A stretch of DNA of 64,000 bases, from the IMG/VR virus record IMGVR_UViG_3300045988_095709, positions 32,001 through 96,000 of that record. The stretch is one strand, 5' to 3'. The stretch is from a virus. The translations under genes were made by a program, and so were the position numbers. The notes under the pieces are model-generated. The model searched no databases. It was not told the DNA's origin and saw nothing but the letters and a program-made list of their open reading frames with translations. Shown one piece after another: positions 1,627 to 63,581 of the stretch. Positions within the stretch are counted from its first letter, which is position 1. The number at the start of each line of letters is the position of its first letter.

Positions 1627-4600
1627 ATGATAAATTCAAATTGTGCTTTAGATTGCATGAATGTCGCTACTGATATTAAAATAGCGGGTATGATGGGATA
1701 GTTAGTACAGCACGAATCTGACAATGACATTCATGTGACAAAAGAAGAAAAAGAAAAATTAAAAAGTATTACAAACGATTCTGAAGATAATTCTGATCTT
1801 ACAGAAATAAAATTAACTTTGAACAATAAAGCCGATAAAGACGAAATACCGACAAAGTTGTCATAGTTAGAAAACGATACTAATTTTATTTCTTCTATTC
1901 CAGATTTCTATACTACTGAAGAAGAGGTAAAATTATTAATCGAAGGTTATCTTGAGGGTTACGACGGATCTGGTGGATCTGGAGGTGCTTCTGATGAAGA
2001 TATAAAAAGATTAGAACAACTTATAAAAGATCTTACTACACTCGTAAACAACAATACTACAGATATAGAGAGTATAAAAAAGACACTTGAAGAACATTCT
2101 GAAAGTATAACTAATATAGAACAGTTAATAGATACTCTCGAATAGTCTATAAGTAACATAAATCAACAGATAGAATAGATAAATGTTAAAATAGACAACA
2201 TCGAAGGCGGTGGATCTGGCGGATCTTATGTTCTTCCGATAGCTTCTGCGACATAGCTTGGAGGAATAAAAGTAGGATTGGGATTGAGTATTGATGGTTC
2301 AGGAGTGTTATCTACTACCGGAGAAGGTGGTGGCGGAGGTTCTGATTTATCTTAGATATTAGAACAGATAAAAGGAATGTTCATATCTAAAACACAAGAA
2401 GACAGTACTGATTACTTATTGACACTAAATGACGGTCTTGTAGTAAAAAAGAACGATATTGACGATTTTTGTGTGTAGACAGATATTGTAAGAGATGCTG
2501 GATTCTTTAGTGGACTCTTCGGATCAGGTTATTCACTTTCTAGTGATTCGTCAGATAGTCTTAGTAATTTTAGTTCTGATGGTTCTTTATTGGAAATAGA
2601 TAATCTTCTTGTTAGAAGAAAAGCTATGTTCCAGGAATTAGAGATAAGAAAAGTATCAGCAATAGGTGGAACTCTTGTTTTATCTAACGCTAGTGGTACT
2701 ATAATAAATACTACAGATAAGGGTGGTGGTATAATAAGATGTTATTTAAAAGCCGATGACGGTACTACTAGAACTTAGAATTTATTCCAACCTCAAGATT
2801 ATGTAAGATGTCAGACGTTTAATATACAAGCTGGAATATATAGTGATGTAAAAAATAAATCATACTGCCTTGCTGTATAGGATGTTGGTTCCGACGAAGC
2901 TTTGGGATCAAACGAACCTATGAACTATATAGATGTTATATATCAATCTGGAGATAAGCCGGAGGCTGGAGATGTAATCGTACAGTACGGATGTCAGCCT
3001 GGAGGTGACGAATCTAGAAAGAATCTTATAGAGTTATCAACATCTGACGTAGATGCACCTTGTATGAAGATGTACACAGGAGTAGAAGGAATGCATAGTT
3101 TAGAGGATCATGTTCAGTCTATAATAAGTCCGGAACTTGTAGAATTCACCACAGATGTGTTTAGAATAAGAAGCGGCGGTAATTCATATCCTATAGCAAT
3201 AGACAGAGGAAAGTATGATCAGTATACTACATACTACTATTATGATCGCGTAAGCTACGAAGGAAGTTTGTGGTTGTGTATTTATCAGGGAGAAGAAGGC
3301 GTTACTGGAGTAGAACCATCTTTTGAAAATTCAGAATATTGGGAACTTTAGGTGTCTAAAGGAGACAAAGGAGATCAAGGAGAATCTCAAGACGGAAATG
3401 ATATTTATTCTATGTCATTAGATCAAGATGTATTCTTATCGTTATACGATTCTGAAACTAGAAAATGGTCTCCAGATATAAGGACATCTTCTATAAATAT
3501 AAACGTATATAAAAACAACGAGCTTGTAACTACAAAAGACGTACCTTATACTGCAAGTATAATAGAAACAAACGGTGATTGGACTCCTAGTGCAAGTGTT
3601 ACTGAAGATGCTTCGTCTTATTATATAACAGCATCTGATGTTAGATTGACAAATGGAACAGCAGATTGTACTGTATAGGTATCTATTACTGATACTAATG
3701 TAAAACTTAAGAGAAAATTCACACTCATAGTATCAGAAAAGCCTACGTACGATTATGACGAAAACGGATATACTGTGTTTATATCTCCTTCTAATTTAGA
3801 ATTACCTGTAAAATATGAAACAGAAGATAAATAGATAACGGTATCTAACGATCCTACACATCCTATAAAAATAACAGTACCTGTTGTAAAATCAATAACT
3901 ACGGATTTATCTAAGAAGATAAACGTTATGATATTCAAAGGAAGTAAAGTTATAACAAATCCCTAGATAAATATAAAAAGTTCTGTAAATTTAGATTCGA
4001 TGGATTATGAAGGATGGTTTGGAGTTGGCCATTTATATAAAACCACATATACAGAAAACGATACTTATTAGATAAGTATATACGAAGTCCCAACTTCTAC
4101 TGTATATTGGCTTCCTGAAAACTTTACAGACGGAGAAGCAGTAGCGTTCCCAGTAACAAGTATGAACATAAACATTGCTCCCCAATACGACGGAGTTCCT
4201 TCTACTGACGTACCAGTAAATGTAAATCTGGACGGAAATGGTAGTATATGGGAAGTTACTGGAACTAGATTTACAAGTACTTTCACTGCTATAAATAATA
4301 TGAATATTAACTATTCATCTATAGAATAGACTGCTGATCATATACAATCTGTAGTTGGACAATATCTTGTAGACGAAAACGGTGATTATACTGAAACGTT
4401 TACACAAGCAATGTAGACTGCTACTAGTGTAGAAATTGGAGCATATCAGGACGGTTTGGCTGCATGTGGTCTTATAGTGTCTTTGGAAAGAGGAGGAGAT
4501 GGAAATTATACTTCTACAGATGGTGTTGTAAAAGTATACGGAAACAAATTCCAAGTATACGATAGAGATTTGCGTAATATAATGTTTACAGTAGACGACT

Positions 4601-5355
4601 CTGGTTATACTACTGTTAGAAATCTTAAAGCAGAAAATGCATATGTTTCTGGAGAAGTTATAGCAACAAAGGGATCTGTAGGAGCATTCTCTATACAAGA
4701 TGATAATCTTACATCTAGTAAAAACGGAACTGTAGAATTAACATCCAATGGATTAAAGATTGTATCTCCAACACAATCTAGTGGAGTTGAAGATAGTTAT
4801 ATAGCATTTAATACTGTAAACTAGAAATAGGGAGAAAGTACACTATATAATTCTGCAGCTTATATTCACAATCACGGAAAAGAATCAGGATAGAATTATG
4901 CAGCATTATACGTAAGCTGCGACGGTTTTGGAAAAAAATATGGAATATTTAACGAATCTACGACAAATACTAACGGACTGGTAAACAATGGTGTACTTGT
5001 AAACAACCTATGTCCAGTAACAACCACAATGAATTTGGATGCGTATCCATTTAGTAAATTCATACATTACGGTTCTTCTACGTGTACATTGAACTTACCA
5101 ACAAATCCTGCAGACGGAATGGATATAGAATTTATAGTAACAAATCCTGACGGAAAATTAAACATAAATACTACAAACTCTAATACAATATTATATATAA
5201 AAGACAATATTGCAGGAAGTGTAAACAACGTGAATTCGTATACTACAGGTGGTGCTGGTATATGGAGATTGATATTCCTAGGACAGACACAACAATTAGG
5301 ACCTAGTACTTAGGCGTGGTTTGCATTTAGAATTACAGATAATTACACAGCATAA
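1627..5355 (+). CDS. tail fibre/spike protein, 1242 aa, 20 in-frame TAG read as Gln
   Basis: Track ORFs 2590, 2902, 3352, 4456 and 5029 are all in frame 1. All gaps were checked codon by codon and contain only TAG, up to TAA at 5353. Fibre hallmarks: HESDNDIHVTKEEKEKL, KLS(Q)LENDTNF, Gly-Ser linkers, coiled-coil heptads, YVLPIASAT(Q)LGGIKVG. First ATG after the terminator; the start is less certain. Confidence 0.8.
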
Positions 5356-5357
5356 TA

Positions 5358-5876
5358 ATGTTCGATATAAAAGGAAACAAAATAGTATTGAGTACTGATG
5401 ATCTTGCGATACCTCCTTTTAAAGAATTTTACAATAACGCAAAAGATAAAGAACAAGCGAAAAAGGAAATAGAATATGTAATATGGAGATACAAATGGAA
5501 TACTCCATACGAATCTTATCCAGAAAACGAAAGATCTCAAAGAGTATCGAAAGATTTATTTGGTACTACTACATACGAACCAGACGATAAAGTTAAAGAA
5601 TTGATAAAAAGATTCAACGAGTTTCAGGAGACTCCTAGTACAAGATTACTAGGAGCTTCTAAAACCGCAGCTGAGGGAGTTATGTAGGCATTAAAAGAAT
5701 ATTCTACTGGTGAAGTTGATATAGATACTGCTATAAAGATAACTAGAATTCTGAAAGATGTAGGAGGTATAGTAAAATCATTAGACGTAGCTATGAAACA
5801 AGCCAAGGCAGAACAGTTAGAATCAGGAAGAGTAAAAGGTGGAGGAACTATCGGATTATACGAAGTTCCGAAATAA
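5358..5876 (+). CDS. hypothetical protein, 172 aa (small-terminase candidate by position only)
   Basis: ATG lies 2 nt after the upstream TAA. One in-frame TAG (5685). TAA at 5874, 10 nt before the TerL start. Confidence 0.6.
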
Positions 5877-5886
5877 TATTTAAATT

Positions 5887-7950
5887 ATGGTAAACTTTAA
5901 TTAGAAATTTCATAATACAGATAAATTCAGACAAGCAGCTTTATATTTTATGGAGCACGGAACATATACTAGTGCGCCTCCTGGTACTACTGATTACGTA
6001 GCGTATTGGGATAGAGAAACAGAAAGATGTATTAATGGATTTACTGCAGAAGACGGGGAGTATATTACTGGATACCATTATTTTTATTTGAACTACTCCC
6101 CTATATATACAATAAAAGCTGAACAATATACAGATAGAGGAGGAAATAAAAGAACAAGACGTATTCGTTCTTTGTCGTTCCCTTCTTTTTGGGATTATGA
6201 TGCGTACTATTATTATACAATTGAAGCCGCCGAAGATGTTGGAAAACATTTAGCTGTACTCAAATGTAGAAAGAGAGGTTATAGTTTTAAAGGAGCTTCA
6301 ATGTTAGTACGTAATTATGAATTGATACCTGGATCAAAGAACTTCGCTGTAGCTTCTGAGCAGAAGTATTTGATCGGTGACGGATTACTTACTAAAGCGT
6401 GGGCTATCATGGACTTTTGTGATAGAAACACGGCTTGGGCAAAACAGCGTCTAAAATCTACGAGTATGGAAAGAACATCCGGATTCAAAATAAAAGACGA
6501 ATTCGGAAAAGAAACAGAAGATGGATACATGTCCAGTATAATAGGAATAACTCTTAAGAATGATGCAGAAAGAATAAGAGGTACTCGTGGAAAATTAATA
6601 TTATGGGAAGAGGCTGGAAAATTTGCAGATATAAAAGAAGCATGGTCTATAGCAAGATCTTCTCTAGAATCGGATGATGGAGTGGCTTTCGGAACACAAA
6701 TAGCATTTGGTACTGGTGGTACTGAAGGAGTTGACTTCGAAGGTTTGAAAGATATGTTTTTTCATCCGGATTCTTATAATATATATTCGTAGCCAAACAT
6801 ATGGGATGATAACGCAGAAGAAACAAATTGTGGATTCTTCTGTCCGCAATGGTCTAATATGGAGGGTTTCGATGAAAAAGGAAATTAGATGTTTATGGAT
6901 AAAGACGGAAACTCGTTGAGAGAACTATCCATAAAAGAATGTGTAAAACAAAGAAAAGAAGTACAAGACGGTAGAGGAGATCAATAGTTATTAGATAGAT
7001 TTATAGCGGAAAGACCGCTAAAACCAGCAGAAGCTGTATTGGAACTTGGTGGAAATATATTCCCTAGAAAACAATTATTAGATCAACTTAATAGACTAAG
7101 AACAAATATAAAACTATAGAATATGAAACATGTGGTTGATCTATCATGGGATGGAGACGGAAAAGTAAAAGCCACAGAGAAAAAATCTGGAGATATTACA
7201 ACATATCCGCTAAAGTCTGGAGAAAAACCAGAAGGCTCTGTTGTAATATGGGAATATCCAATAATAAATCCACCATACGGATTATATATAGCAGGGTTAG
7301 ACCCTTACGATTAGAATGAATCTGGAACAAATTCTCTAGGATCTATAATAATATATAAAAGATTCAAAGCGGGAGAAGCTTGGACAGATACTATAGTTGC
7401 AGAATATTCCGGAAGACCCGGAACTGCAGATGAATATTACGAAAATGTTCGTAAGTTATTAATATTTTATAATGCGAGATGTTTGTATGAAAATGAAAAA
7501 ATAGGAATATATCAACATTTCGTAAATAAACATTGTGATTATTTATTAGCCGATCAACCAGATAAAGTCATAGCTCAGATATTTAGAGATTCTAGAGTTA
7601 ATAGAAAAAAAGGATGTCACATGACAAAACAGGTAAGATAGTTTGCCGAGGAAAAAATAAATGAATGGTTAAGAGAAGAATACGCTCCAGGACATCCTAA
7701 TTTAGAAAGAATATATAGTGAACCGTTATTAGAAGAATTAATAATGACGAACGGAGAAAGAAACGTTGACCGAGTTATTGCTTTATGTATGGTAATGATA
7801 TATAGAGAAGAATTATATCAATTAAAAGTATCTGAGGCTAAATAGTAGAATAAACAAGTCGAACTGTTCGATTTACCATTGTTTGGTACTTAGTGGTGGA
7901 ATGACGATAGTAAATCAGAAGACGACGGTATACCGATATTTCAATTTTAA
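5887..7950 (+). CDS. terL: terminase large subunit, 687 aa, 10 in-frame TAG
   Basis: Frame-1 ORFs 5950 and 7123 plus the checked gaps. Walker-A-like CRKRGYS, Walker-B-like KLILWEEAG, nuclease-type GLDPYD(Q). Sits immediately upstream of the portal. TAA at 7948. Confidence 0.85.
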
Positions 7951-7952
7951 TT

Positions 7953-10448
7953 ATGATAGAAGATAATTTGTATAACTCCAGATTTCCATAGCAAAAATTA
8001 CCATTATCTAAAAAGAACAAGAAATGGCAAACAGATTGCGTAAATTATATAATCGGAGAAGGAAATATAGTTTCTGGTGCACAATCAAAAACAGAATTTG
8101 GCGAATTATAGACTTATTATAATCTTTACAATAGTATTTTCGACGAAAAAGATTTCAAGAAAATAACAAATCCGTTTAAAGTAGAAGATGGATTTCCTGC
8201 TACACCACAAGATTTTAATATAATAAGACCTAAAATAGATTTGCTAATTGGAGAAGAAACAAAAAGACCATTCAACTTTACTGTTACTAGAACATCATAG
8301 GAATCAGCTTCAGAGTTGATGGATAAACAAAAATAGTTAGTGTTGCAGTATGCTATGTCTTTCTTTAATTCACAACTTGGTCCAGAAGAACAGCAATAGT
8401 TCCAAGAACAAATAGCAAATGGAGAAGTAATGCCTCCTGAGCAAATTGCTAAGTATATGGACAAAGACTTTAAAGATGTTGTTGAAAACACAGCATATCA
8501 TACTATAATGTACTTAAGAAAAAAGTTATCTACGGATAACGAATTCATAAAAGGATGGAAAGACGCACTTATCGGTGGTAGAGAAATTTATTACGTAGGA
8601 GTATTAAATTCTGAACCGTTTTTAGAGCGTGTAAATCCTATGTAGTTATCTTTCGACAAGAGTCCTGATCTAGAATACATAGAAGACGGATCTTGGTGTT
8701 GTAGGAAAATGAGACTTCCTATAGCAGAAGTGTACGATAGATACTACGATAAATTAACAGAAAAAGATTTAAATAAATTAGAAGAAATGATGAATGCTGT
8801 ACCTGCAAACAATATTGGTGAGCATAATCCTGTTGACGACTTCAAAGGAATATAGTTTCATTTCTATGACAATCCTTTATATGATGAAAAAAATAGTCAT
8901 TGTATAAACGTATGGCATTGTTGTTGGAAGTCTTTTAAAAAGATATTCTATGTTACTACTGTTGACGAAACAGGACAGACTCAAATAGATATTGTAGACG
9001 AAACTTATCAAAAGACTGGTACAGAAATAAGTGTTGAACCTGATTGGGTAATAGAAGTTTGGGAAGGATACAGAGCGTCTAACGATTTATATTTTGGAAT
9101 ATAGCCGTTAGAATATCAGCATATAAGTATAGATAATCCTAACAGTTAGAAATTACCTTATTGTGGCGCAATATATAGTAATACTAATAGTAAACCACGT
9201 TCATTGGTTAGCATATTAAAACCATTACAATATATGTATATTGTACTTTGGTACAGGTTAGAGTTAGCTTTAGCTAGAGATAAAGGAAAAGTCGTAAACA
9301 TGGATATAACATAGATACCTAAATCTATGAATATAACTCCCGATCGATGGCTTCATTATTTATCTAGTGTCGGTGTTAACTTCATAAATCCTTACGAAGA
9401 AGGTTGGAATATAGCTGGTCGAGAAGGTGGAAAACCGGCAACTTATAATCAAATAACGGCATTGGATCTTACAATGAGTAATGTAATAGCTGAGTATATT
9501 CAACTCATGGATAAGATAGAACAACTAGCCGGAACTATTTCAGGAATTACTGAACAAAGACAAGGAGCAATTTCTACTTCAGAATTAGTAGGAAATGTTG
9601 AACGAAGTGTTATACAATCTTCACATATAACTGAGCCTTTATTCTGGACTCACAATTAGGTAAAGAAACACGCGTTAACTATGCTTCTAAATACAGCAAA
9701 AGGTGTATGGTAGGATTTAGGAAAAACAAAACTACAATACATATTTGACAACGGAGAAAGAGCTTTTATAAATATACCTGAAAAATTCTATTATGAAGAT
9801 ATAGATATATTTATGAGCGATACTTCAAAAGACGCAGAAAACATACAAAAACTACAAAGTCTTATACAGCCAGCTATGCAAAATGGTGCATCGTTGTTAG
9901 AGGCTGCAGAAGTTCTTACTAATGATAACTTTAATATAATCAAACAGAAACTTAAAGATATGCAAACTAGACAAGAACAGATGCAACAACAACAGCAGCA
10001 GGCAGAAACTGAAAGAGCTGAAAAGATTCAACAAATGCAGAATCAAGCAAAAGAACAAGAACTTATGCTTAAAGAAGCAGAGATGGATCTGGAAAGATAT
10101 AAGATCGATTAGGATAATGCTACTAAAATAGCTGTAGCCGAAATTAGTACTTATAGAGGTAGTGAAGATAAGGATATAGATATGAATGGAATATCTGATC
10201 CTATAGAAATAGCCAAAGATGCTACTGCTCAAATGAAAATACGTGAGGATCAGTATACTAAGAGATACGAAACCGAACAGAAGAAAGAAATAGAACAGTA
10301 GAAGATAAAATTAGCAAGAGAGCAAATGAATCACGAAACTGAGCTTTAGAAATTAAAAGATAAAGCAGCAATGGAACGTGAATAGTTAAAAGCAAGGACC
10401 GCATTAAAAAATAAAACAAATGCAGAAGCTGCTAAAAGTAAAAATTAA
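7953..10448 (+). CDS. portal protein, 831 aa, 16 in-frame TAG
   Basis: Frame-0 ORFs 8430, 9327 and 9813 joined through TAG-only gaps (checked). Position between TerL and scaffold/MCP, size, WYRLELALARDKGK-type segment, acidic/coiled-coil C-terminus. TAA at 10446. Confidence 0.8.
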
Positions 10449-10473
10449 TTAATAATTTAAAAATTTTAGTATT

Positions 10474-10548
10474 ATGGCATGTGGAAACAAAAAGAGCTCA
10501 TCTAAGAAGTCTTCTGGAAGCAAGACTAGCTCTGGAAAAAAGAAGTAA
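10474..10548 (+). CDS. possible 24-aa Lys/Ser-rich peptide
   Basis: MACGNKKSSSKKSSGSKTSSGKKK fills the only gap between the portal and the next gene. TAA at 10546 lies 2 nt before the next ATG. No other support. Confidence 0.25.
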   Translation: MACGNKKSSSKKSSGSKTSSGKKK

Positions 10549-10550
10549 TT

Positions 10551-11993
10551 ATGAAAAAACCTAAAAGAAGGGGATATGTTCCTAGTAGAAATGTAAGGAA
10601 TCATATCTACAAATGGGAAGCTTCAGATATAAAAGCTCAAAATAAAAAATTTGGTGGAGACGCTATAAAAGCAAAAGCTGCAGAATTTAATGCTATGTTA
10701 GGAGATTATGCTACTAGAATAGGATAGAATACTGCAGACGCTTTATTCTCTACTTATTATAATATTTCTCCTAATACATTTAAAGAACGAATACTCCCTT
10801 CTGTAATAGATTACGCTAAAAATTCTACTAAAGAGAATTATAATAAAGTACACGATATAATGATGAATCGTTATACGTGGGCTGATAAAAAATATCAACG
10901 TGGAATAAAAAAAAGAGCTGCAGCAGATGCGGCTTTATCGAAACCTATAATAGAAATAAACTACGATGACGTAGTTAATGACGCATTAGAACAACCTATA
11001 GATGTGTTAAGAGTTGAAACTCCTAAAATAATAAAACCTATAAAAATAAAAAGTACTCCTATAATACAATAGGAGCAAGAACAAGCTCCTATTTATTTAT
11101 AGAAACCAGAAATATTACCTAATATAATAGACACTTGGAATAACGTACAAAAAGGAAATACATTATAGATTCCTCAATTTAAAGATGGTAAAGATTCTAT
11201 AATTTTAGATACTATAAATTATAATAAATATAAAGAAAGTTTACCTAAAAATTTAAGATCAGACAATATAGATTATAATTTATACGAAGCGTATAAAATA
11301 AATATGAAACCAGAATTGTAGGAAGACGGAACATATCATTTAGGAAGTAGAAATCCGTATAATGGAAAAATATTGAAATCAACATTTCATCCTACTTTTA
11401 GTAAAGCTATATACGAAGATATGAAGATGGGATATTATCCGCAATACAATAACGGAGATATATATACTCAAAAAATATTTTAGTATGAAGATGGTAAAGA
11501 TTCTTTATGGAATGAATATTCTAAATTTAACGACAGTGCTTTAAGTATACCAGTTAAGTTTTTAGATCCTACTGGAATATCTTCGTGGAAAGACGCATAT
11601 GATGCGTGGACTAGTGAAAATTTAAACATTCCAGATGCTATATTTGAAACTGTAGGAGCAATACCTCTTATAGGAAAAATAGCAAAAATAGGAAAAGCTG
11701 CAAAATTATTATCTAAAGATAAATAGTTATTTAAAACTCAAGATTATATATTAAGAGGTATAGGTACTTCTCATGATGTACAACAGCAGATAAAAAAGCA
11801 CAATAACGGTAAAGATTCTGGAATACATATTAAAAAAGCAAATGTTGGTAAATTCACAAATGCTGCAAAACAACATGGAATGAGTGTTCAACAGTTTGCA
11901 AATAAGGTACTAAAAGCGCCAAAAGGAAAGTATAGTTCAACACTTAGAAAAAGAGCAAATTTCGCAAGAAATGCTAAAAACTTTAATCATTAA
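10551..11993 (+). CDS. hypothetical virion protein, 480 aa, 8 in-frame TAG
   Basis: Frame 0 checked codon by codon. Triple (F/Y)xDGKDS / NGKDS motif. Basic C-terminal segment GIHIKKANVGKFTNAAKQHGMSVQQFANKVL...RKRANFARNAKNF. Confidence 0.7.
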
Positions 11994-12050
11994 TGCGTAA
12001 AAACATTTGTTTGTTTTTACAGGCACAAAAAACTAATTATAAATATAATT

Positions 12051-13202: not shown

Positions 13203-13230
13203 TGAACATATTTAAAAAATCAATTAAAAT

Positions 13231-14751
13231 ATGAATACACTTTTAAACAATCTTCAACTTTATAGAGGACGTCGTTTCTCTGATCTGGTTGATGAAAACA
13301 TGATTTCAAACGCACTATTAACAAAGCCTCATGAGGTTTCAGGTCTTCTTTCTCTTGTATTTGGTACAAAGGATGACGGAGTATCTACAGCTATTGACTT
13401 GATTACTGGAGGTCTTGGTAAAACAATGATTATCGAAAACCGCGAATATGAGTGGTCAGTAATGATCGACAGCGACCATGCGGTTAACATTCGTTATGCT
13501 AAGTATAACGGAAAGGAGCTTACAGATTCAGATATCGATACAGTAACTCCTGGTATTAATGGTTCTCCTATTTATATAGGTCTCGAGGAGAAGTGGTTTG
13601 GACCTGGTGCAATTCTCTCATTCGACGATTATAATTTTCAGGTTCGTGTTAACGGAAAGCCCTATCAGGATGGAAGCACATGGGTATACGAGTGCTACGT
13701 TGCAGACGGATTTGCAAGCTCATATATTCCTGTTGAGTATCTTCTTCCTGGAAGACAGGTTAGCCGTATTGGTAGCGCATACGAAGAGTATAGCGACGAG
13801 GCAGATATCATAAACTATCAGACACCGTTTAAGATGCGTAACAATCTTAACACACTCCGTCTGTCTTATGATATTACAGGTGACGCTTATTCTACAGTAT
13901 TGGCTATCGCTCTGAAGGATCCTGAGACAGGTAAGACATCTTATCTGTGGGCAGATTACCAGTATTGGTTGGCTCTTCGTCAGTGGAAGAAGCGTGAGGA
14001 GACAATGCTTCTGTTCTCTCACTCTAACAGAAATGCTGACGGTACATACGCACTCAAGGGAACTAACGGACGTGTTGTTCCAATTAGCGCTGGTCTGTTT
14101 GAGCAGGTTTCTCCGGCAAATATTCGTTATTACACAACACTGACTGCAGAATTGCTCGAGGATTATCTGTTCGATCTCACATACAATCTTCTCGGAACAC
14201 AGGAGCGCAAGTTTATGGCTCTTACTGGTGAGATGGGTATTCGTGAATTCGATCGCGTACTTCGCGAAAAGGCTGCTGGATTCCAGCTTATTGATACGAA
14301 ATTTATTACTGGCTCAGGTCAGGAATTGACACTCGGTGGTCAGTTTACAACATATAAGATGACAAACGGTATTGAGTTGACAGTTAAGCGTTGTGCTCTG
14401 TTCGACAATATGGAACTGTTCCGTCAGCTCCATCCGATTTCTGGAAAACCGTTGATGTCATACACATTCTTGTTCGTAGATCTCGGACAGCGTGACGGAC
14501 AGGCAAACATCGTTAAGGTTTGTCGTAAGGGTCGTGAGTTTGTACAGTGGGTTACTGGTGGTTCTGTAATTCCTAGCGGATATGCAAACAGCATCAATAC
14601 TCTGCGTTCTAACTCTAGAGATGGTTATCAGGTTCACTTCCTCGGTGAATTCGGTATAATGCTTCGTAATCCTCTGTCTTGCGGTATTCTCTACTGCGAT
14701 GCTGAAGATACAGATATACGTAACGAGGGTAATGCTAACGTAACAGCGTAA
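13231..14751 (+). CDS. major capsid protein, 506 aa, no TAG
   Basis: Uninterrupted ORF with clearly different, GC-richer codon usage (ctg/ctc/cgt/ggt). Size and position after the scaffold-like gene fit an MCP. Functional call rests on synteny. Confidence 0.75.
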   Translation: MNTLLNNLQLYRGRRFSDLVDENMISNALLTKPHEVSGLLSLVFGTKDDGVSTAIDLITGGLGKTMIIENREYEWSVMIDSDHAVNIRYAKYNGKELTDSDIDTVTPGINGSPIYIGLEEKWFGPGAILSFDDYNFQVRVNGKPYQDGSTWVYECYVADGFASSYIPVEYLLPGRQVSRIGSAYEEYSDEADIINYQTPFKMRNNLNTLRLSYDITGDAYSTVLAIALKDPETGKTSYLWADYQYWLALRQWKKREETMLLFSHSNRNADGTYALKGTNGRVVPISAGLFEQVSPANIRYYTTLTAELLEDYLFDLTYNLLGTQERKFMALTGEMGIREFDRVLREKAAGFQLIDTKFITGSGQELTLGGQFTTYKMTNGIELTVKRCALFDNMELFRQLHPISGKPLMSYTFLFVDLGQRDGQANIVKVCRKGREFVQWVTGGSVIPSGYANSINTLRSNSRDGYQVHFLGEFGIMLRNPLSCGILYCDAEDTDIRNEGNANVTA

Positions 14752-14777
14752 TATTTGTTTAAATGATAATGTTCGAC

Positions 14778-14794
14778 AGGGGCGTAAAGCCCCT
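14778..14794 (+). terminator. GC-rich hairpin downstream of MCP (no T-run)
   Basis: AGGGGC-GTAAA-GCCCCT, the only GC-rich element in this spacer. Confidence 0.3.
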
Positions 14795-14831
14795 ATGCCG
14801 ACATTGCAACATACTAATTTAAAAATAAATT

Positions 14832-15584: not shown

Positions 15585-15593
15585 TATTAAAAT

Positions 15594-18879: not shown

Positions 18880-18909
18880 TATTAATTAATGTTTAATGTA
18901 GATGGGGTT

Positions 18910-20191: not shown

Positions 20192-20197
20192 TAAATT

Positions 20198-30568: not shown

Positions 30569-31093
30569 ATGAACATATTAGCATCTATTGGAAATACATT
30601 TAATACGATAAGCAACGGTACAGAAATAGGAAAATTAGCTGTTGCTGCATCGGCTATATTAGTCGCATATATATCTCCAATAGTTGGATTGTTAATCGCC
30701 TGTTTTGCATGTTCTATCACAGACATGATTTATGGAATCAAAGTAGCAAAACGGCTAGGAAAGAAAATCACTAGTAAAAAGAACTGGAAAGGAACTCTTA
30801 CTAAAATAAAAGACGAATTTACTTTAATACTATTGGCACACCTATTAGAGTATGTAATAGGATATGGTGATAATTTCATACTATCTGGAGGTATAGCTGT
30901 GATTATATGTTTGACTGAAATACTTTCTATATTGGAAAATCTAAACACACTAAACCCAGAAGGACCGTGGAAACTGATAAGTAAATTCTTAAAGAAAAAG
31001 GGTTCTGACATAATGGATATAGATGACAATATAATTTAGCAAAATGATGACGATAATAAATTGGTTAATAAACAACAAAAGAATCGCCATTGA
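30569..31093 (+). CDS. holin (phage_holin_4_1-like); 156 aa to TAG 31037, 174 aa if read through to TGA 31091
   Basis: Predicted membrane segments; ITDMIYGIKVAKRLGKKITSKKNWKGTLTKI core typical of this holin family. Adjacent to the endolysin. No internal TAG. Confidence 0.75.
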
Positions 31094-54100: not shown

Positions 54101-57100
54101 GGACAGGATGAACAGAATGGCTGAAATAGGAAGTCAGTAGATAAAAGAAGAATTCTTTACCAACGGAAAGCTAGATTACGCAAAATTAAAAGATTTCATA
54201 GTAAGAGAACTTTCTAGTAGAAATGCCGATAAGAATATACTTGAAGCTGTCAATTTGGATTATCTTACTGACGAGAACGGAAATATAATTCCGGAAAGCG
54301 TACATTTTGTTACTGACATAAACGTAGTTTCTAATATGGCATGGATAGAAAGTATATTGATATCACATATAAATAAAAAAGTAATAGATATTAATTTTAA
54401 AGGAAATGCTTTCTATCAGAGATCCGTGTTTGGTCTTGATAGCCCTACTGTATTAAACGACGATTAGGTAAAATACGAAATGAATGGTGGTAAACCTCTG
54501 CAGATGATAAATGAAGAGGGAAGTATGGACGCAGTAATAAGTATAGACTACTTTATGGATATTATACCTAAGAAATATAGATATAATTTCAAAAAAGCAA
54601 AACAATGGTTGATTGACAACGATATTATATCTGGTATAAAAACAGGAACAAAAGAGTGGAATAATGCTAAAGCTAGTGTGTTATCATACCGTATTCCTAC
54701 TCAGGCGGCATCTTCTATTCACGCGTTAAGATTTGTAGACGTATTACCAATCGTTAGAGATACTATAATACTACCTAGAGAGTTTACTAAGATTACTGGT
54801 TCTGACTTCGATATTGATAAATTGTATTTATCGTCTTTCTATTATAATGTAAACAAAGAAACCGGAAAGTCATCTTTGATAATGGACGACGAATATGAAA
54901 ATACAGCAAATCAACTTCTTTCTATATATCTTTCTTTGATTAAAGATGCTGGAAAACAAGTTACAGACGGAAAAATATCTAAGTCTAGATACATGCATAT
55001 ATTGAACAGATCTATTGATAACGATACAGAGTTGATAACCAATGTTCTTTCTGATATAGAATCTGGAAAAACTAAAAAGACCGTAGAGCCATATCAATTT
55101 GAAAATCTAACCAATCAAGTAAAGATAAAACAATCATTTGCTACAGGTAAACTCGGAATAGGACCGTTTGCGTTGAATAACAACAATCAGGTACTTACTA
55201 TGTTGTACAACGTTTCTTTCAAAGATTTTGGAGACAACGATAAAAGTTTATTAACTTATATCGGAATGAACAGGTTAGATAGGATTACAGATATAAACGG
55301 AAACCATATATTATCGTGGATATCTGCGATGATAAACGCACACGTGGACGTTGCGAAGGATCCGTATATATTAAGATTAAATGTAAATAAATTTACATAT
55401 AATCTAGTAAATCTACTTATACGTTGTGGTCTAGGAGATAGAGCTTTATATTTCATCAACAACCCTATAATAAAAGATTTAGCTAGAATAAGTGAAGAAA
55501 CGCAAGGAAGAATAGTTGATGAACCGGAAATAAGCGTAAGAAAAAGGTTTGAAAACGCTTAGGAACAGTATATACGTGACTGTAAGTTTAGAGATGAGTC
55601 TTTTTCTAAGTTGTATATGAAAGCTAAGGACGAAGAAAAAAGAGCTGCTGAAAAGAAAGATTTTGATAAAATCGCAGAAATAATGGGAATGGATAGAGAC
55701 GGTCTTCCAATAAATAGTATTAAAATATTTAAAGACGGTCAGTATTATACTGTTGATGGTACATATATAATGAGAGACATTTTAAAAAATAAAGACGTAC
55801 TCATAGATGAAAACAAACCGTTAAGTATGGATAATCTTAGAGACGACGATCAGTTTTATTACGTGTTGGAAGGTGATAGAAGAGTTACTCCAAAAGAAGT
55901 TTAGATGTATATATTCTTAGCTATGCAAAATTTAAACATAAATGCAGCGGCTCTTTCTGCAGTAGTACAGGCTACTAAAGTAGACACTAAAAAGCACGGT
56001 AAAACTGTAAGAGAACAATCAGAATATAATGCTAAATACGAATAGTTATTAAGAGGTGGTATATCTAACATGTTTGAAAATTTGGATAACATGTTGACAA
56101 AATCTTATATAAACGTTAAAACTAATCTCGGAATAGGTATTCCTAAGAAAATTCTTTAGGAGTTTTCTATAACAGCTACAGACAATTTTAGATACGTAGT
56201 GGATTCTATATGCTCTATGTACTTAAACAACTAGACTTCTAAAACTAAAACATCGATACAGAATGCTGTTCTCGCATACGTTAAACAGATTGCTATGAAT
56301 AAAGCTATGGAAGATAACGGAATAACTAGCGAAAAGTGGATGGAGATGATACAAGGAAGAAAAACGTTAGCACAGAGAATAACAAACCTTCAGAACATAT
56401 TGATTTCGGATGTAGATGGTAAATATAAATCTTTAGCTACTAACGGAACAATAATAAATCCATTACTTGCTAATTTGCGAAGAATTCCATATCAACCACA
56501 ATACGGACAGGTTCACTACGATCTTATAGGGTTAGAAAACAAAGGAGCTGACGATAGTGAATTGAGTAATAACTATATTGATGCATGGTAGCAACTTTTA
56601 GATTATGATGATCCTCAATATCCAAAAGAGTCTGAAGCTATAAGGAAGCTAGCTAGCGATCTTGCTGTTTATGCGTTTGTGACATCTTCTGATACTAAAG
56701 GAACAAATAAATTTTTCAAATATGTTCCTGTTTCTTGGAGAAATGATTTTGGGTATTCAGAGTATATAAGATAGGCTTTTTAGTACTTTAAAGACGGAAA
56801 CGTAAAAGTACAAGAAGATGCTGAAGATGGATTTTTAACTATAGATCCGTACGAATTAATAATGAATAACTATATGGATCCTAATATTCTACCTACACAT
56901 AAGATGAATAAGTTTATGGGATCTTCTTATCAGTATAGTGAAACGGATTTCTAGGGAAAGATTATAACAAGTAATATATACACAATGATTGCAGGTCTTG
57001 TTAACGATAGACCTACAATGTATAAATCTGAATACATTACACAATATCCTCCTTTTGTCAGAATACAAAGACCAAATACCAATAGATTTTCTGCAGATTA

Positions 57101-58268
57101 GTATTTGTTGTATAGACTTGCTGCTTACGGTACTAAAACGTTATCTGACGGTAAACAGGTATCTTATCCTGTATATATACTTTTAAATCCTAAAGGTCAG
57201 AGAGTTAAAATAGGTGCTCAAAATTATGATTTCTATTCTGTAGGAAGAGACGATAATTATCAGCACGATTTCTTAAAAGGTGAAACTCCAAACTTCTTAG
57301 AAAAAGTAAAATGGATATAGAAAAACATAGAAAAAATACAGGAGTTGAGAGCAGCTAAAACAGCAACAGTAGGAGACGTGAGATAGTTGTTCGACATACC
57401 GGCAGGAGATAGTTATTCTATACAAACGTTCGGAAATATATAGAGAACAGTATATCAAAATGAAAAATACGGAAATATAGGAGAAGCTGAAATACAACAC
57501 GACTAGTTACAATTAGAGCTCGGACCATATGGTGAATGGGAAATAAAAGGCGATAATACTTCTAAATTTGATACAAACAAAGCATTAGATACATACACAT
57601 TGCATTCTGGTGGAGCAAAAGGTTCAGACTCTTACTGGGGAACAGCAGGAGAGAAATACGGCTTATTGTACGACGATAAACACCAAAGACACTATTATCA
57701 CCAAGAAAAAACTCCTGTAGGAAATGTAGAAATATCTAATTAGGATTACGAAGAAGGAAGATACAAGGCAGCATAGGCTGCTTCAGCAAGATGGGGATAT
57801 AACTTGAAAACAATGAAAGATAATAGATTGATTAGAAATTGGGCTCAGGTTAAATATTCAGATGCAATATTTGCAATAGGAACTCTTGTTAAACCCGGAC
57901 AACCGATAGATCCAAACAACAATAAAGAAACAAGAATTGCTAAGAAAGTAATAGTTTCTGGAGGTACCGGATATGCTGTAGAGATGGCTATACAAGCTGG
58001 TAAACCTGTATACGTATTCGATTAGAGGAGAAACAGATGGTATAAGAACATAGACGGAAAATGGTCTAAATCAGATATTCCTGTACTTACTAAAAATTTC
58101 GCAGGTATCGGAACTAGAGAGTTATAGGATAACGGAAAATAGGCTATAGAAGACGTATATAAAAAGACTATAGAATAGATGTAGAAGAACTCTACTAATT
58201 AGGATATCGATATCAATATAGAAGATTTCAGTAATCTAAACGAATAGAGACATGAACAATGTGATTAA
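42150..58268 (+). CDS. giant multidomain virion protein containing crAss-type RNA polymerase, 5372 aa, about 104 in-frame TAG
   Basis: 24 track ORFs from 43131 to 57804 are all in frame 0. I walked every gap and found no TAA/TGA until TAA 58266. Contains DFDID, HExxH, PD-(D/E)XK-like and SLOG-like segments. Confidence 0.75.
47193..47252 (+). other. PD-(D/E)XK nuclease-like motif inside the giant ORF
   Basis: GETDMLAVDTDGSVYLIDFKTSK has the pattern G-x-x-D-(x)n-hhh-D-x-K-T, as in RecB/Cas4-type nucleases. Confidence 0.45.
49683..49697 (+). other. HExxH zincin-type motif inside the giant ORF
   Basis: TDYHESFHAVVELL (cac gag tct ttc cat at 49683-49697). Confidence 0.4.
54804..54818 (+). other. 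DxDxD catalytic motif of the crAss-type DPBB RNA polymerase
   Basis: ITGSDFDIDKLYL preceded by SYRIPTQAASSIHALRF. This matches, from memory, the DFDID metal-binding loop described for phi14:2 gp66. Confidence 0.65.
57597..58170 (+). other. SLOG / DUF2493-like Rossmannoid domain at the C-terminus of the giant ORF
   Basis: LHSGGAKGSDSYWG ... LIRNWAQVKYSDAIFAIG ... SGGTGYAVEMAIQAGKPVYVFD follows the GGAxGxD ... RN ... GT ... A..G.PV pattern. Confidence 0.5.
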
Positions 58269-61200: not shown

Positions 61201-63581
61201 CGCCTTCTTCTATGTTTTCAGAGATAGATTTAGAAAACTCTTCTAGTGATTATATAAATAAAAATTACGATAGACAGTCAGATTAGACTTTACAACCAAA
61301 AGAGTCTATATATAGAGATGAAAACTATTATAAATATATAGAAGGAAAGAAAGAGATGAAAGAATTGTACGATGAATTAATTAGTACAATGGAACAATCT
61401 TTTTAGAACTATCCTTTTGTGAAGAAATATGATTATAGATTGCCACAGAGAGGAGAAACAAGAAATTCATCTATACTTTCTAGAAATCTATTGACAAGAT
61501 TGGGTGTAAACGTAGGAGAAGTTTTAGATAGAACTCTGTCTGTAAACGAAAACGATTTGGATATAAATTTCCAAGAATAGGTATTACGACCAGATGGAAC
61601 ACCTATTAAAAATATACCAATAAGGTGGATAAGAAGACTTAGTAAACCTGAGTATATATCTTCAGATATAATAGGTTCTGTTACTTTAATGTATGGAATG
61701 TCTGTAAACTATAAATTAAAAAATCAAAAAGTTTCTCAAGTAGAGTCTATTTTAAACTATATAAGAAGTAACGATCCTAGTAGTTCTTCAAAATAGGCAG
61801 AAGCTATACAAGGAATGATAGATAGACAATTCTATGAAGAACAGACATCTGGACTGAAAGTAAATCCGACGCCAGAATAGTGGAAACATGCTGATTGGTT
61901 TAGAAGATATTTCTGGAGTGCTAAATCATGGTTGAAAAAAGTAGGACAAATAAGAGGTATCGCATAGTTAGGTATGTTGGCATTCAACTTAGGTTCTGGT
62001 ATAGTTTCGTCTTTAGACGCTACTACTAGTATGGTTATAGACGTTCTTACTGGAAAATATATAAACTATAAAGACTTATCTTATGCATTCAGCCAGTTAA
62101 TGTTTGATTTACCTAAAGCTATAAACAGCTTAGGTAAAATAAAAACCGATAGTGATATATGCGCTCAGATGTAGTATTTTGGACTAGCAAAAGGAAACGC
62201 TCAGACGTTTAGAAACACCGATTATAGTAAACTGAGAAGATTTTTATCTGACGGATTACTTATGAAACAATTTGCAATAGGCGATTATACAATCAACGCT
62301 TTAAATATGACATCTGTACTATATAATTATAGATTGTATGTAGATTAGGATGGAAAACGTCAACTATTAAATAAACCTGACTTCATAAGAAAGGCTATAA
62401 ACGACGGAATGACATATAAACAAGCCAAAAGTGCTTATAATTCCGCAAAGATAGCAAAACGTTTCCTTAAACGTGGAAAAGACGGCATGATTACTGTAGA
62501 TAAAGAGTTTGAAAAGGATATGTACAGAATAGGACAGTAGATAAGAAGTAGATCGTCAATATACAACGGTGTTATAAATGATGCTGAACGTACATATTTC
62601 CAATCTAATGTGTGGTTGTCTTTGATATCAATGCTTCGTAATTTCTTTATAGTAGGTATTTGGGAAAGATTTTAGACTTATCGAGATTTTCAAATGAGTG
62701 TCGAATAGACTTTTGATCCTGAAACAGGAGAGATACTAAACGAATACGGAGGAGAAAATTTAAATCCTCAACAAGCTGCCAATATAAAGAAAGAATAGAG
62801 ATATTATGCAGGAGGGTACAACTTCGATACCGGACAGATAGAAAACGGAACAACATTATCGTTCTTTAGATACTTATCTAAACTATATCCTTATCTTAAG
62901 TATTCAACAGACGTAATATTCTCAGGAATGAGTAAGTACGATCCACAAAGAGAGTAGTACTTAAAAAATAACAATCTAAACGCGTAGGAAATATACGGAG
63001 CTTAGAAAATAACTATGGAATTTACAGCAGCGATGTTATTTATATTAGCCAGTGCAAGTATATATAGAATAGCTAAAACAAAAGATCCAGATGACGATGA
63101 TGCTTATTTGTGGTATCTTATCAACTATGTTATGGTTCGTCTCCCTATCGAAAGATTTACGTGGATGTCGTTAGATACAGTGAATGACCTTATAAATTCT
63201 ATCACAGCAGCTTCTTCTGATTTAAAACGAAAAGGACATTTGATAGATATGGTTATGGAAGCGTTAGGATTAAGTAAGCACAAACTCACTGACGAAATGC
63301 CTTCAAACAGTCAATATGCAGGTCAACAGCGATGGTTTTATCATCTTTGCAACATCGGTTCTAGTTTTGGTTTGCATAACTACTATGTTAATATGCCTAA
63401 AGCGTTAGGTGGAGGAGGAGCTAAACCTTTGATGCGTAAAGCATATTTCTATTATGATAAATTACCATTTGGTAATTATATTTACGATAGAGGTAAAAAG
63501 ACAGACAAAGTAGATAAAAGAAAAAAGAATGTCGGAGTTTCTGTTATTAGCGATGACAGTAATGACGGATTTGATAGATGA
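58281..63581 (+). CDS. second giant virion protein, 1766 aa, about 36 in-frame TAG
   Basis: ORFs 58893 to 63015 are all in frame 0 with TAG-only gaps (checked). ATG lies 12 nt after the upstream TAA. Hydrophobic segments near the C-terminus. TGA at 63579. Confidence 0.75.

What the first reader, a model, noticed from the sequence alone, without database searches (positions are those of the whole stretch)
1627..63581. TAG is a sense codon (Gln) across the whole late module
Every long same-frame run of track ORFs is broken only by TAG. TAA/TGA appear only where the next ATG follows within 0-12 nt (5353/5358, 7948/7953, 42146/42150).

Evidence that the residue is Gln:
- Paralogues inside the window align TAG with CAA: MNFLDKTGL-caa(22289)-YFWGKI versus MNFLDKTGL-tag(23382)-YFWGKI. 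Codon 28 of the 22038 gene is caa (22119), while codon 28 of the 20198 gene is tag (20279).
- In the endolysin, G-tag(30361)-FDALADFIFNLG and DL-tag-P match the Q in the QYDAL...FNIG and EDLQW segments of P22 gp19-type lysozymes, as I recall that sequence.
- TAG is interspersed with CAA/CAG in poly-Q tracts.

TAG recoding is known in crAss-like and other gut phages (Yutin 2021; Borges 2022). This window is a very clean, internally provable case.
Basis: partly seen in the sequence, partly recalled or inferred. Interest (0 to 1): 0.8.

Follow-up and report, generated by a model that had tools for sequence, protein, structure and literature searches.

The report
Amber-to-glutamine phage code, intron-split suppressor tRNA
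This gut crAss-like phage reads the stop codon TAG as glutamine in all its late genes, which is a known phenomenon, but the suppressor tRNA gene that should make this possible is cut in two inside its anticodon by a mobile self-splicing-type intron that standard tRNA finders miss.

Summary
In window 1627-63581, 33 co-directional genes contain 326 in-frame TAG codons and no in-frame TAA or TGA. Coding density is 98.6% with TAG as sense, against 54% under code 11.

TAG means Gln:
- In five related Oafivirinae genomes the codons opposite window TAGs are mostly CAA, CAG or TAG. Gln beats every other amino acid by more than 220 log-likelihood units.
- Between near-identical strains, 31 of 37 changes at TAG positions are TAG<->CAG/CAA.
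- TAG 30361 aligns with the Q of the lysozyme motif TQNQFDAL.

This kind of recoding is already published for crAss-like phages.

The new part lies at the left edge of the window. Positions 692-729 are the 3' half of a tRNA(CUA) whose backbone matches Bacteroidales tRNA-Gln(CUG). Sibling strains carry the intact gene. Here it is split between U35 and A36 by a 972-nt insert (window 1-691 holds its 3' part). The insert encodes an HNH endonuclease and has a group-I-type ribozyme core: 40 base pairs, 99.3% paired, 15 pairs with compensatory changes. Rfam does not recognise it.

The same intron splits tRNA(CUA) genes in about 30 IMG/VR phage contigs. In one complete recoded Bohxovirus genome the split gene is the only tRNA(CUA). 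Splicing itself is inferred, not shown.

The parts
1627..63581 (+). Late module: 33 co-directional genes with 326 in-frame TAG (31% of all Gln codons), no in-frame TAA/TGA, all ending in TAA or TGA
1..691 (+). 3' 691 nt of a 972-nt group-I-type intron inserted in the anticodon of a tRNA(CUA) gene. The full intron is L002 8958-9929; its 5' 281 nt and tRNA exon 1 lie just left of the window
   Evidence: L002 is 100% identical to window 1-11245. Intronless allele in sibling strains L003/L004/L007
2..637 (+). C-terminal 211 codons of the 298-aa intron-encoded HNH endonuclease. It has 0 TAG codons, and its stop TGA is at 635-637, inside the ribozyme core
   Evidence: Pfam PF01844 23.5 bits (cut-off 21.4); phrog_10822 E 3.5e-41
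544..691 (+). Ribozyme core. Proposed guide GGA 544-546. P2 549-556/568-575. P3 581-587/648-654. P4 595-598/613-616. P5 602-604/608-610. P6 617-620/632-635 plus 623-624/629-630. P7 638-644/677-682 (pseudoknot with P3). P8 655-660/665-670. Terminal G at 691
   Evidence: Alignment A2. Pair counts 99.3% paired, 15/40 pairs with compensatory changes, 0/500 shuffles, slid controls 34-48%. No Rfam hit
692..729 (+). Exon 2 of tRNA(CUA): A36 of the anticodon through the 3' end. With exon 1 (L002 8923-8957) it gives the same 73-nt tRNA as in intronless strains
   Evidence: Backbone equals Bacteroidales tRNA-Gln(CUG)
763..1245 (+). dUTPase gene, TAG-free, ends in TAA. It lies downstream of the suppressor tRNA, in the same order as in relative cr124_1
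1261..1333 (+). tRNA-Met(CAU)
1414..1487 (+). tRNA-Gly(UCC)
5887..7950 (+). Terminase large subunit, 10 TAG
   Evidence: phrog_6681 E 2.9e-145
7953..10448 (+). Portal protein, 16 TAG
   Evidence: crAss001 gp20 (7qog) E 7.9e-81
13231..14751 (+). Major capsid protein: 0 TAG, 1 CAA, 16 CAG
   Evidence: Pfam Crass_capsid 698 bits
30058..30564 (+). GH24 phage lysozyme, 6 TAG. TAG at 30361 lies opposite the conserved Q of TQNQFDAL
   Evidence: Pfam PF00959 137.5 bits; PDB alignments
30569..31093 (+). Holin, 1 TAG
   Evidence: Pfam PF05105 48.3 bits
42150..58268 (+). Giant 5,372-codon ORF with 104 TAG. Comparable giant genes are annotated in relatives, for example cr272_1 gp23 at 6,386 aa

Best explanation
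The window is the late (virion, tail, lysis) half of a crAss-like phage of the Suoliviridae/Oafivirinae type. In these genes UAG is a glutamine codon, and only UAA and UGA terminate.

The decoder is a phage tRNA(CUA) derived from host-type Bacteroidales tRNA-Gln(CUG) by a change at anticodon position 36, like E. coli supE. It is encoded at the head of the rightward block, just upstream of dUTPase, and is presumably charged by the host GlnRS.

Leftward early genes are almost free of in-frame TAG, and some appear to end in TAG. So they can be read with the standard code before the suppressor accumulates.

In this genome the tRNA gene is interrupted between U35 and A36 by a 972-nt mobile group-I-type intron carrying an HNH homing endonuclease. 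The mature suppressor can therefore only arise after the intron is spliced out of the precursor.

Shown: the recoding; the Gln identity; the split gene and its intact allele; the conserved ribozyme fold; the HNH domain.
Inferred: self-splicing; charging with Gln; that this is the only suppressor of this genome; the timing of expression.
For: Recoding:
- 326 in-frame TAG, 0 TAA/TGA, 98.6% versus 54% coding.

Gln identity:
- In five Oafivirinae genomes the codons opposite window TAG are CAA 60, TAG 50, CAG 26, GAA 17 and AAA 17. Log-likelihood is Q -567.5 against the next best, E, at -792.6. Conversely, TAGs in the relatives lie opposite window Q in 89 of 186 cases.
- In strains 95-97% identical, 15 of the 20 variant codons seen at the 136 covered TAG positions are CAG/CAA, and 16 of 17 gains of TAG come from CAG/CAA.
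- TAG 30361 lies opposite Q in 4/4 PDB GH24 lysozymes.

tRNA:
- An intact tRNA(CUA) sits 34 nt upstream of dUTPase in sibling strains, and at the same place in cr124_1, where it is the only one in the complete genome.
- Its acceptor, D and T arms are identical to Odoribacteraceae/Bacteroidales tRNA-Gln(CUG).

Split gene:
- The boundaries are exact: CTCT|...G|AACC. The 5' exon ends in U and the intron ends in G.
- In-silico splicing restores an ARAGORN tRNA(CUA) in 24 of 27 loci that contain both exons.

Intron:
- Covariation-supported P2-P8 with a P3/P7 pseudoknot.
- HNH ORF.
- Presence/absence polymorphism at one site among strains.

Necessity:
- The complete, TAG-recoded Bohxovirus genome PV686213.1 has no tRNA(CUA) other than the split one.

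Context:
- Sense TAGs are followed by a purine in 72% of cases and by C in 5%. True stops are followed by T in 70%.
Against: - No Rfam group I model matches the insert, even at E<=10 on the 236-nt core.
- The proposed P1 is only 3 bp (UCU/GGA). In the window's own copy the P10 pairing seen in most relatives (GTTGGA against TCT|AAC) is absent (guide CGAGGA).
- In 9 related loci and in Bohxovirus the intron ends in A rather than G. This is not expected of a working group I intron.
- About 20 kb of this phage's genome could not be retrieved, so a second, intact tRNA(CUA) cannot be excluded.
- The distant standard-code portal of crAss001 shows R, I, P, N, K, C and D, never Q, opposite the TAGs. 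This is uninformative rather than contradictory.
- No RNA or peptide data were available.
Confidence: 0.85

Rival explanations
1. TAG is Gln, but the split tRNA gene is a casualty of a homing endonuclease insertion and is dead. Decoding would then rely on another suppressor: an intact phage tRNA(CUA) in the unseen ~20 kb, a host or co-infecting-phage tRNA, or near-cognate tRNA-Gln readthrough.
For: - No Rfam group I hit.
- P1 is only 3 bp in this copy.
- The A-ending subclade looks splice-defective.
- Part of the genome is unseen.
- Some phages carry two tRNA(CUA) copies, as in L009, L015 and L019.
Against: - Both exons stay perfectly tRNA-like in about 24 divergent loci, and the ribozyme core shows compensatory changes. 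This indicates selection on both.
- The complete Bohxovirus and cr124_1 genomes each have a single tRNA(CUA) locus, at this position.
- None of about 30 intron-bearing loci has an intact copy nearby.
Confidence: 0.12
2. TAG is a sense codon but stands for an amino acid other than glutamine, for example Lys, Glu, Tyr, Trp or pyrrolysine (ARAGORN labels the tRNA 'Pyl').
For: - ARAGORN names any CUA anticodon tRNA-Pyl.
- K and E are the next most frequent residues opposite TAG.
- crAss001 portal shows K/R/D/N at these positions.
Against: - Likelihood favours Q by more than 220 log units.
- TAG<->CAG dominates strain-level exchanges, like a synonymous transition.
- The tRNA body is that of tRNA-Gln.
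- The conserved lysozyme Q lies opposite a TAG.
Confidence: 0.02
3. The TAGs are genuine stops. The module would then be a field of fragmented genes or pseudogenes, or an assembly artefact.
For: GenBank records of relatives annotated with code 11 show exactly such fragments: Bohxovirus PV686213.1 and Dulem virus 42.
Against: - Frames run for up to 5,372 codons without TAA/TGA (ln P about -1592).
- Full-length homology to TerL, portal, lysozyme and others runs across the TAGs.
- The same sequence is found in many independent assemblies.
Confidence: 0.01

Closest known systems
TAG-to-Gln recoding of late genes in crAss-like phages (delta group = Suoliviridae) and other gut phages: Yutin et al. 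2021 (PMC7886860); Borges et al. (bioRxiv 10.1101/2021.08.26.457843)
   Same: In-frame TAG concentrated in late, structural and lysis genes. Early genes use the standard code. A phage-encoded tRNA(CUA). A Bacteroidales host background. The nearest genomes are Oafivirinae.
   Different: Nothing essential for the recoding itself. Those papers state that some recoded genomes lack a detectable suppressor tRNA and suggest a host or very divergent tRNA. An intron-split suppressor is not mentioned in the texts searched.
E. coli supE (glnV44) amber suppressor, a tRNA-Gln with anticodon CUA (from my own knowledge)
   Same: A tRNA-Gln(CUG) body with CUA as the anticodon (G36 to A). It inserts Gln at UAG in competition with RF1.
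   Different: Here the anticodon stem also differs from the cellular tRNA-Gln, the gene is phage-borne, and it is interrupted by an intron.
Bacterial group I introns in tRNA anticodon loops: cyanobacterial tRNA-Leu(UAA) and tRNA-fMet (the latter with endonuclease I-Ssp6803I), Azoarcus tRNA-Ile, Agrobacterium tRNA-Arg (from my own knowledge; Azoarcus: PMC13168695 listed)
   Same: Insertion within the anticodon loop. The 5' exon ends in U. A compact core with a P3/P7 pseudoknot. A very short P1.
   Different: It sits in a phage suppressor tRNA. It carries a 298-aa HNH ORF that fills the stretch between the 5' splice site and the guide sequence and overlaps the core through P6. It is not detected by Rfam models.
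HNH-endonuclease-bearing group I introns of phages, e.g. SPO1/SP82 I-HmuI/II and T-even related HNH genes (from my own knowledge). T4-like HNH genes share about 70% identity over 170 nt with the ORF
   Same: An HNH homing endonuclease inside a phage group I intron, with presence/absence polymorphism between close strains.
   Different: The known cases interrupt protein-coding genes (DNA polymerase, nrd, td). Here the target is the anticodon loop of amber-suppressor tRNA genes.

Membership tests
Phage late-gene TAG-to-Gln recoding (code-15-like) | Conserved genes are interrupted only by in-frame TAG; TAA and TGA are the only terminators | tested here: met
   326 TAG and 0 TAA/TGA in 20,397 codons; stops are TAA 25 and TGA 8
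Phage late-gene TAG-to-Gln recoding (code-15-like) | TAG positions correspond to Gln in homologues | tested here: met
   Codon-level tabulation and likelihood; strain exchanges; lysozyme Q
Phage late-gene TAG-to-Gln recoding (code-15-like) | Phage-encoded suppressor tRNA with anticodon CUA | tested here: met
   Present, but split by an intron: exon 2 at window 692-729, exon 1 at L002 8923-8957. Not found by default ARAGORN or Rfam
Phage late-gene TAG-to-Gln recoding (code-15-like) | Early genes are readable with the standard code | tested here: inconclusive
   This was tested outside the window only. 15 of 18 called genes in L002 1-10483 (16 of them upstream of the window) have no in-frame TAG, and two have a TAG 5-8 codons before the next stop. 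In L178, 6 of 30 code-11 calls end in TAG. One leftward gene has 7 in-frame TAG
Phage late-gene TAG-to-Gln recoding (code-15-like) | Peptides with Gln at TAG positions | not testable with these tools
   No proteomic data
Crassvirales, Suoliviridae/Oafivirinae | crAss-type major capsid protein and gene order; nearest relatives in that subfamily | tested here: met
   Pfam Crass_capsid 698 bits. Best nucleotide hits are Burzaovirus, Buhlduvirus and Bohxovirus at about 75%. Synteny with cr124_1. Genus and species were not assigned
Group I intron | 5' exon ends in U opposite a G of an internal guide sequence (P1) | tested here: inconclusive
   U is present in all loci. The proposed guide GGA gives only 3 bp. 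GTTGGA is complementary to the ligated TCT|AAC in most relatives, but not in the window's copy
Group I intron | Intron ends in G (omega-G) | tested here: met
   The window copy reads CTTATG|AACC. The feature is not met in 9 related loci or in Bohxovirus, which end in A
Group I intron | Core helices P3-P8 with a P3/P7 pseudoknot, supported by covariation | tested here: met
   40 pairs, 99.3% paired, 15 with changes on both sides, 0/500 shuffles, slid controls at or below 48%
Group I intron | Conserved P7/J8-7 sequence with the G-binding pair (ACAGACUAAA ... AUAGUCGG, as in the Tetrahymena intron) | tested here: inconclusive
   The sequence is present at window 636-646 and 675-683. The comparison with Tetrahymena is from memory, not from a tool
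Group I intron | Match to a curated covariance model (Rfam) | tested here: not met
   No hit at E<=1 on 1.3 kb or at E<=10 on the 236-nt core
Group I intron | Self-splicing | not testable with these tools
   Needs an in vitro transcript or RNA-seq
HNH homing endonuclease | HNH catalytic domain | tested here: met
   PF01844 above cut-off; phrog_10822 E 3.5e-41
HNH homing endonuclease | Occupied and empty alleles of one site in closely related genomes | tested here: met
   L002/L005/L006 are occupied and L003/L004/L007 are empty, at 95-97% genome identity
tRNA-Gln | Sequence identity to cellular tRNA-Gln outside the anticodon arm | tested here: met
   Acceptor, D and T arms are identical to Bacteroidales tRNA-Gln(CUG) in L076, L079, L081 and L090
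tRNA-Gln | Charged with glutamine | not testable with these tools
   Inferred from the tRNA body and from the Gln signal at TAG positions

The most novel reading that the evidence does not exclude
A family of HNH-carrying group-I-type introns has specialised on the anticodon loop (CUCU|AAC) of amber-suppressor tRNA genes in TAG-recoded gut phages. In this phage the only suppressor tRNA must be spliced before any late protein can be completed. This would explain why some clearly recoded phages appear to have no suppressor tRNA. It would also put an RNA-splicing step, possibly a timing step, upstream of the genetic-code switch.
Probability: 0.55. Interest if true: 0.75.

Novelty: new variant of a known kind. 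Interest (0 to 1): 0.6.

Why it matters
The recoding itself is a clean but expected example. It matters in practice because two GenBank relatives (Bohxovirus PV686213.1 and Dulem virus 42) are still annotated with code 11 and shredded into fragments.

The intron-split suppressor is the interesting part. Both Yutin et al. 2021 and a 2025 study of zeta crAss-like phages note recoded genomes without a detectable suppressor tRNA and leave this unexplained. A mobile intron inside the anticodon gives a concrete, testable answer for at least some of them. It shows that tRNA surveys of recoded phages need intron-aware searches.

It also raises two questions. Does splicing gate the switch from the standard to the recoded reading of the genome? 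And how does a selfish element persist in the single gene on which all late translation depends?

Tried and rejected
- Rfam on the insert and on the whole window: only tRNA-Met and tRNA-Gly were found, and no intron family.
- crAss001 portal (PDB 7qog) as a standard-code reference: too distant. No Q lies opposite any TAG, so it is uninformative.
- The search for homologous proteins with the portal returned only relatives at 80% identity or more. These were probably translated with the same code, so they were not used as independent evidence.
- Retrieving the rest of the genome failed in part. Its 98% relative sits on a contig ending 1.5 kb further on. Walking left through a 218-aa early protein gave 6-8 kb from 99% and 86% relatives, with no tRNA(CUA). 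About 20 kb remains unseen.
- Test for TAGs placed early in genes, which would block translation early: the first TAG is no earlier than expected from random placement among Gln codons.
- My first statement that no early gene ends in TAG was circular, because the L002 gene calls were made with TAG as sense. I corrected it after reading the sequences.
- Alternative in-silico splice boundaries from ARAGORN -i (tRNA-Ser(CGA) for L002, tRNA-Lys(CUU) for Bohxovirus) were rejected for the window. The intronless sibling allele fixes the boundary at U35|A36.

Full report
WHAT THE WINDOW IS. The window has 32% G+C. A 20-kb stretch (10000-30000) matches only crAss-like phages of Suoliviridae/Oafivirinae at about 75% nucleotide identity: cr7_1, cr124_1, cr272_1 and Bohxovirus. 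Several genes are identified directly. The major capsid protein matches Pfam Crass_capsid at 698 bits. Also identified are the large terminase (phrog_6681), the portal (crAss001 gp20, 7qog), a GH24 lysozyme, a holin and a family-2 glycosyltransferase. Gene order follows cr124_1. A Logan contig (L002, ERR1578717_1375, 97,483 bp) is 100% identical to window 1-11245 and supplies 9.2 kb to the left of the window.

CHECK OF THE OBSERVATION.
- Reading TAG as sense doubles + strand ORF coverage from 32 kb to 64 kb. Reading TGA or TAA as sense does not.
- Between 1627 and 63581 there are 33 co-directional genes (20,397 codons) with 326 in-frame TAG and no in-frame TAA or TGA. At the off-frame rate about 1,531 TAA/TGA would be expected, so ln P is about -1592.
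- All 33 genes end in TAA (25) or TGA (8).
- Coding density is 98.6% with TAG as sense, against 54% for code-11 ORFs of 60 aa or more.
Ten junctions are 13-328 nt and nine overlap.
- Only three poly-Q runs contain TAG.

WHICH AMINO ACID. I avoided protein databases that may already have been translated with TAG=Q, and compared codons instead.
- Five Oafivirinae genomes. The codons opposite 84 alignable window TAG positions (284 cells) are CAA 60, TAG 50, CAG 26, GAA 17, AAA 17 and then a long tail. A likelihood built from the substitution profile of each amino acid in the same alignments puts Gln at -567.5 and the next best, Glu, at -792.6. In reverse, the relatives' TAGs lie opposite window Gln in 89 of 186 cases.
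- Strains 95-97% identical. Of 136 window TAG positions covered, 20 variant codons were seen, 15 of them CAG/CAA. Of 17 positions where a strain has TAG and the window does not, 16 are CAG/CAA (raw counts). TAG<->CAG therefore behaves like CAA<->CAG.
- Lysozyme. TAG 30361 aligns with the Q of TQNQFDAL in all four best PDB homologues.
- crAss001 portal. It is too distant to help.
- Usage per gene. TAG supplies 31% of Gln codons overall. It is absent from the capsid gene (0 TAG, 1 CAA, 16 CAG) and from two other genes.
- Context. Sense TAGs are followed by a purine in 72% of cases and by C in 5%. Real stops are followed by T in 70%. From my own knowledge of amber suppression in E. coli, this is the direction expected for contexts that favour suppression and termination respectively.

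THE DECODER. ARAGORN and Rfam find only tRNA-Met and tRNA-Gly in the window. Three sibling strains (L003, L004, L007) carry a 73-nt tRNA(CUA) 34 nt upstream of the dUTPase gene. So does cr124_1, where it is the only tRNA(CUA) in the complete genome. In L002, and therefore in the window, the same 73 nt are present but separated by 972 nt. Exon 1 ends ...GGAGGCTCT (L002 8923-8957, just outside the window). Exon 2, AACCCTCTTAG...GGGGTAAC, is window 692-729. The break lies between U35 and A36 of the anticodon, with no ambiguous base.

A scan of 185,579 species genomes for tRNAs with the same D and T arms shows the closest cellular relatives to be Bacteroidales tRNA-Gln(CUG). Their acceptor, D and T arms are identical. 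The suppressor is thus a supE-like derivative of host-type tRNA-Gln, which fits the Gln signal.

THE INSERT. It encodes a 298-aa HNH endonuclease (PF01844 above cut-off; phrog_10822 E 3.5e-41). The ORF has no TAG codon. It starts 21 nt after the 5' junction and ends at window 637.

Rfam finds no intron family. However, the last ~150 nt are far more conserved than the ORF between copies that are 73% identical overall. A pattern from this region retrieved about 30 IMG/VR phage contigs. An alignment of 21 distinct cores (A2) supports a fold with the group I topology, as follows.
- P2 hairpin.
- P3 (UCUUCUC/GAGAAGA).
- A minimal P4-P5 arm.
- P6 with a GNRA-type loop.
- P8 hairpin.
- P7 (CAGACUR/YAGUCG), pseudoknotted with P3.

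The pair counts are: 40 pairs, 99.3% of cells paired, 15 pairs with changes on both sides, 0 of 500 shuffles as good, and 34-48% paired when the partners are slid.

The stretch GACAGACUAAA-CGAGAAGA-[P8]-AUGCAAU-AGUCGG parallels, element by element, the P7/J7-3/P3/P8/J8-7/P7 region of the Tetrahymena intron. That comparison is from my memory, not from a tool. The 5' exon ends in U and the window's intron ends in G.

The likely guide is GGA (window 544-546), directly upstream of P2. It gives only a 3-bp P1. In most relatives the hexamer GTTGGA is complementary to the ligated junction TCT|AAC, but the window's copy has CGAGGA. The ORF would then sit in the P1 loop and overlap the core through P6.

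In-silico splicing at U35|A36 restores an ARAGORN tRNA(CUA) in 24 of the 27 loci that contain both exons, on several different tRNA backbones. The element therefore looks like a homing intron specialised on amber-suppressor anticodon loops.

IS THE SPLIT GENE NEEDED? None of the intron-bearing loci shows an intact tRNA(CUA) nearby. Most gain ORF coverage when TAG is read as sense. The INPHARED collection holds one complete circular genome with this intron, Bohxovirus PV686213.1. There the insert is annotated only as a hypothetical protein. That genome is TAG-recoded: coverage by ORFs of 150 aa or more rises from 0.42 to 0.67. Its only tRNA(CUA) is the split one.

For the window's own genome about 20 kb could not be retrieved. 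The 6-8 kb of early region recovered from 99% and 86% relatives contain no tRNA(CUA).

EARLY GENES. Left of the window, 15 of 18 called genes have no in-frame TAG. Two have a single TAG 5 and 8 codons before the next stop, most simply a real TAG stop. In an 86% relative called with code 11, 6 of 30 early genes end in TAG. One leftward 171-codon gene has 7 dispersed TAGs. This is consistent with the published early-standard/late-recoded model, but it lies outside the window.

WHAT REMAINS ODD. In nine related loci and in Bohxovirus the intron ends in A, not G, with no G available nearby, although P7 is unchanged. These genomes are recoded and keep perfect exons. So either these copies splice in an unusual way or something else supplies the suppressor. 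I could not resolve this. The window's copy is canonical in this respect.

COMPARISON WITH WHAT IS KNOWN. TAG-to-Gln recoding of late genes with phage suppressor tRNAs is established for crAss-like phages (PMC7886860; bioRxiv 10.1101/2021.08.26.457843).

From general knowledge, group I introns in bacterial tRNA anticodon loops and HNH-bearing group I introns in phage protein genes are both known. I found no paper describing an intron inside a phage suppressor tRNA. Two papers explicitly leave recoded crAss-like genomes without a detectable suppressor tRNA unexplained (PMC7886860; PMC12386605). The literature search covers open-access text only.

VERDICT.
- Observation: confirmed.
- Interpretation (TAG = Gln): supported at about 0.97.
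- Phenomenon: already known.
- Added finding, an intron-split, Gln-type suppressor tRNA half inside the window: a new variant. The split gene itself is solid at the DNA level. The ribozyme fold is well supported. Splicing and any regulatory role are inferred.

Noticed in passing
window 13231-14751, 17821-18879, 32357-32809: Three late genes, including the major capsid protein, contain no TAG at all. The capsid gene uses CAG for 16 of its 17 Gln codons, whereas the module as a whole uses TAG for 31%. This looks like avoidance of the suppressed codon in the most highly expressed gene.
   Followed up: partly
window 1627-63581 (all sense TAGs and all stops): The base after a sense TAG is A 43%, G 29%, T 23% and C 5%. 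After CAA/CAG, C is 16-18%. After true stops, T is 70%.
   Followed up: partly
L008, L022-L027, L032, L034; Bohxovirus PV686213.1 65192-66245: A subclade of the tRNA(CUA) intron ends in A instead of G, with no G between P7 and exon 2. ARAGORN -i then parses the gene as tRNA-Lys(CUU) with an intron after position 37.
   Followed up: partly
L002 8900-8922 (just left of the window) and the equivalent place in L023, L026, L030, L031, L033, L036: A short G+C-rich or perfect stem-loop lies 3-10 nt upstream of the 5' end of the tRNA(CUA) in many unrelated phage contigs. This was seen by eye in the output. It could be a terminator of the upstream gene or a processing signal.
   Followed up: no
cr124_1 NC_055899.1 34357-34713 (L175); L178 12390-12691: ARAGORN calls a permuted tmRNA-like gene in the early region of two divergent relatives. 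The resume sequences (AAATTAAACGGCA) and tag peptides (GNVNNIVDYTNVA / GTKNVIDYSCVA) are similar. GenBank annotates it as SsrA. It is not in the window.
   Followed up: partly
L002 5238-5753, minus strand (about 4-5 kb left of the window): A 171-codon leftward gene inside the early block carries 7 dispersed in-frame TAGs. It is left uncalled in a code-11 relative (L178 1230-1728). It is a recoded gene outside the late module.
   Followed up: partly
PV686213.1 (L053, L179, L180); PP511876.1 (L054): Two deposited relatives are annotated with the standard code and broken into many short 'hypothetical' ORFs. In Dulem virus 42 the capsid and terminase genes are additionally split by endonuclease-bearing inserts.
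   Followed up: no
window 20198-21994 / 22038-22259 and 22262-23341 / 23355-24467: Two pairs of adjacent genes share near-identical N-termini: MEFNDNDVKVFGK.../MEIKENDVKVFGR... and MNFLDKTGLQYFWGKI... in both members of the second pair. This looks like swappable tail-fibre cassettes. The 73-codon gene at 22038 looks like a truncated copy.
   Followed up: no
window 42150-58268: A single 5,372-codon ORF with 104 TAG. Relatives have similar giants, for example cr272_1 gp23.
   Followed up: no
window 27943-28270: This is the largest non-coding gap of the late module (328 nt). It follows the glycosyltransferase gene and was not examined.
   Followed up: no
L009, L015, L019 (IMG/VR contigs of 102-166 kb): Some phages carry two adjacent intact tRNA(CUA) genes.
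   Followed up: no
L120, L130, L137, L142, L159, L162 (GTDB genome contigs): tRNA(CUA) genes of the same type occur on contigs binned into Segatella copri and Bacteroides MAGs. One such contig is 101,563 bp, so these are probably phage contigs or prophage-like DNA inside bacterial bins.
   Followed up: no
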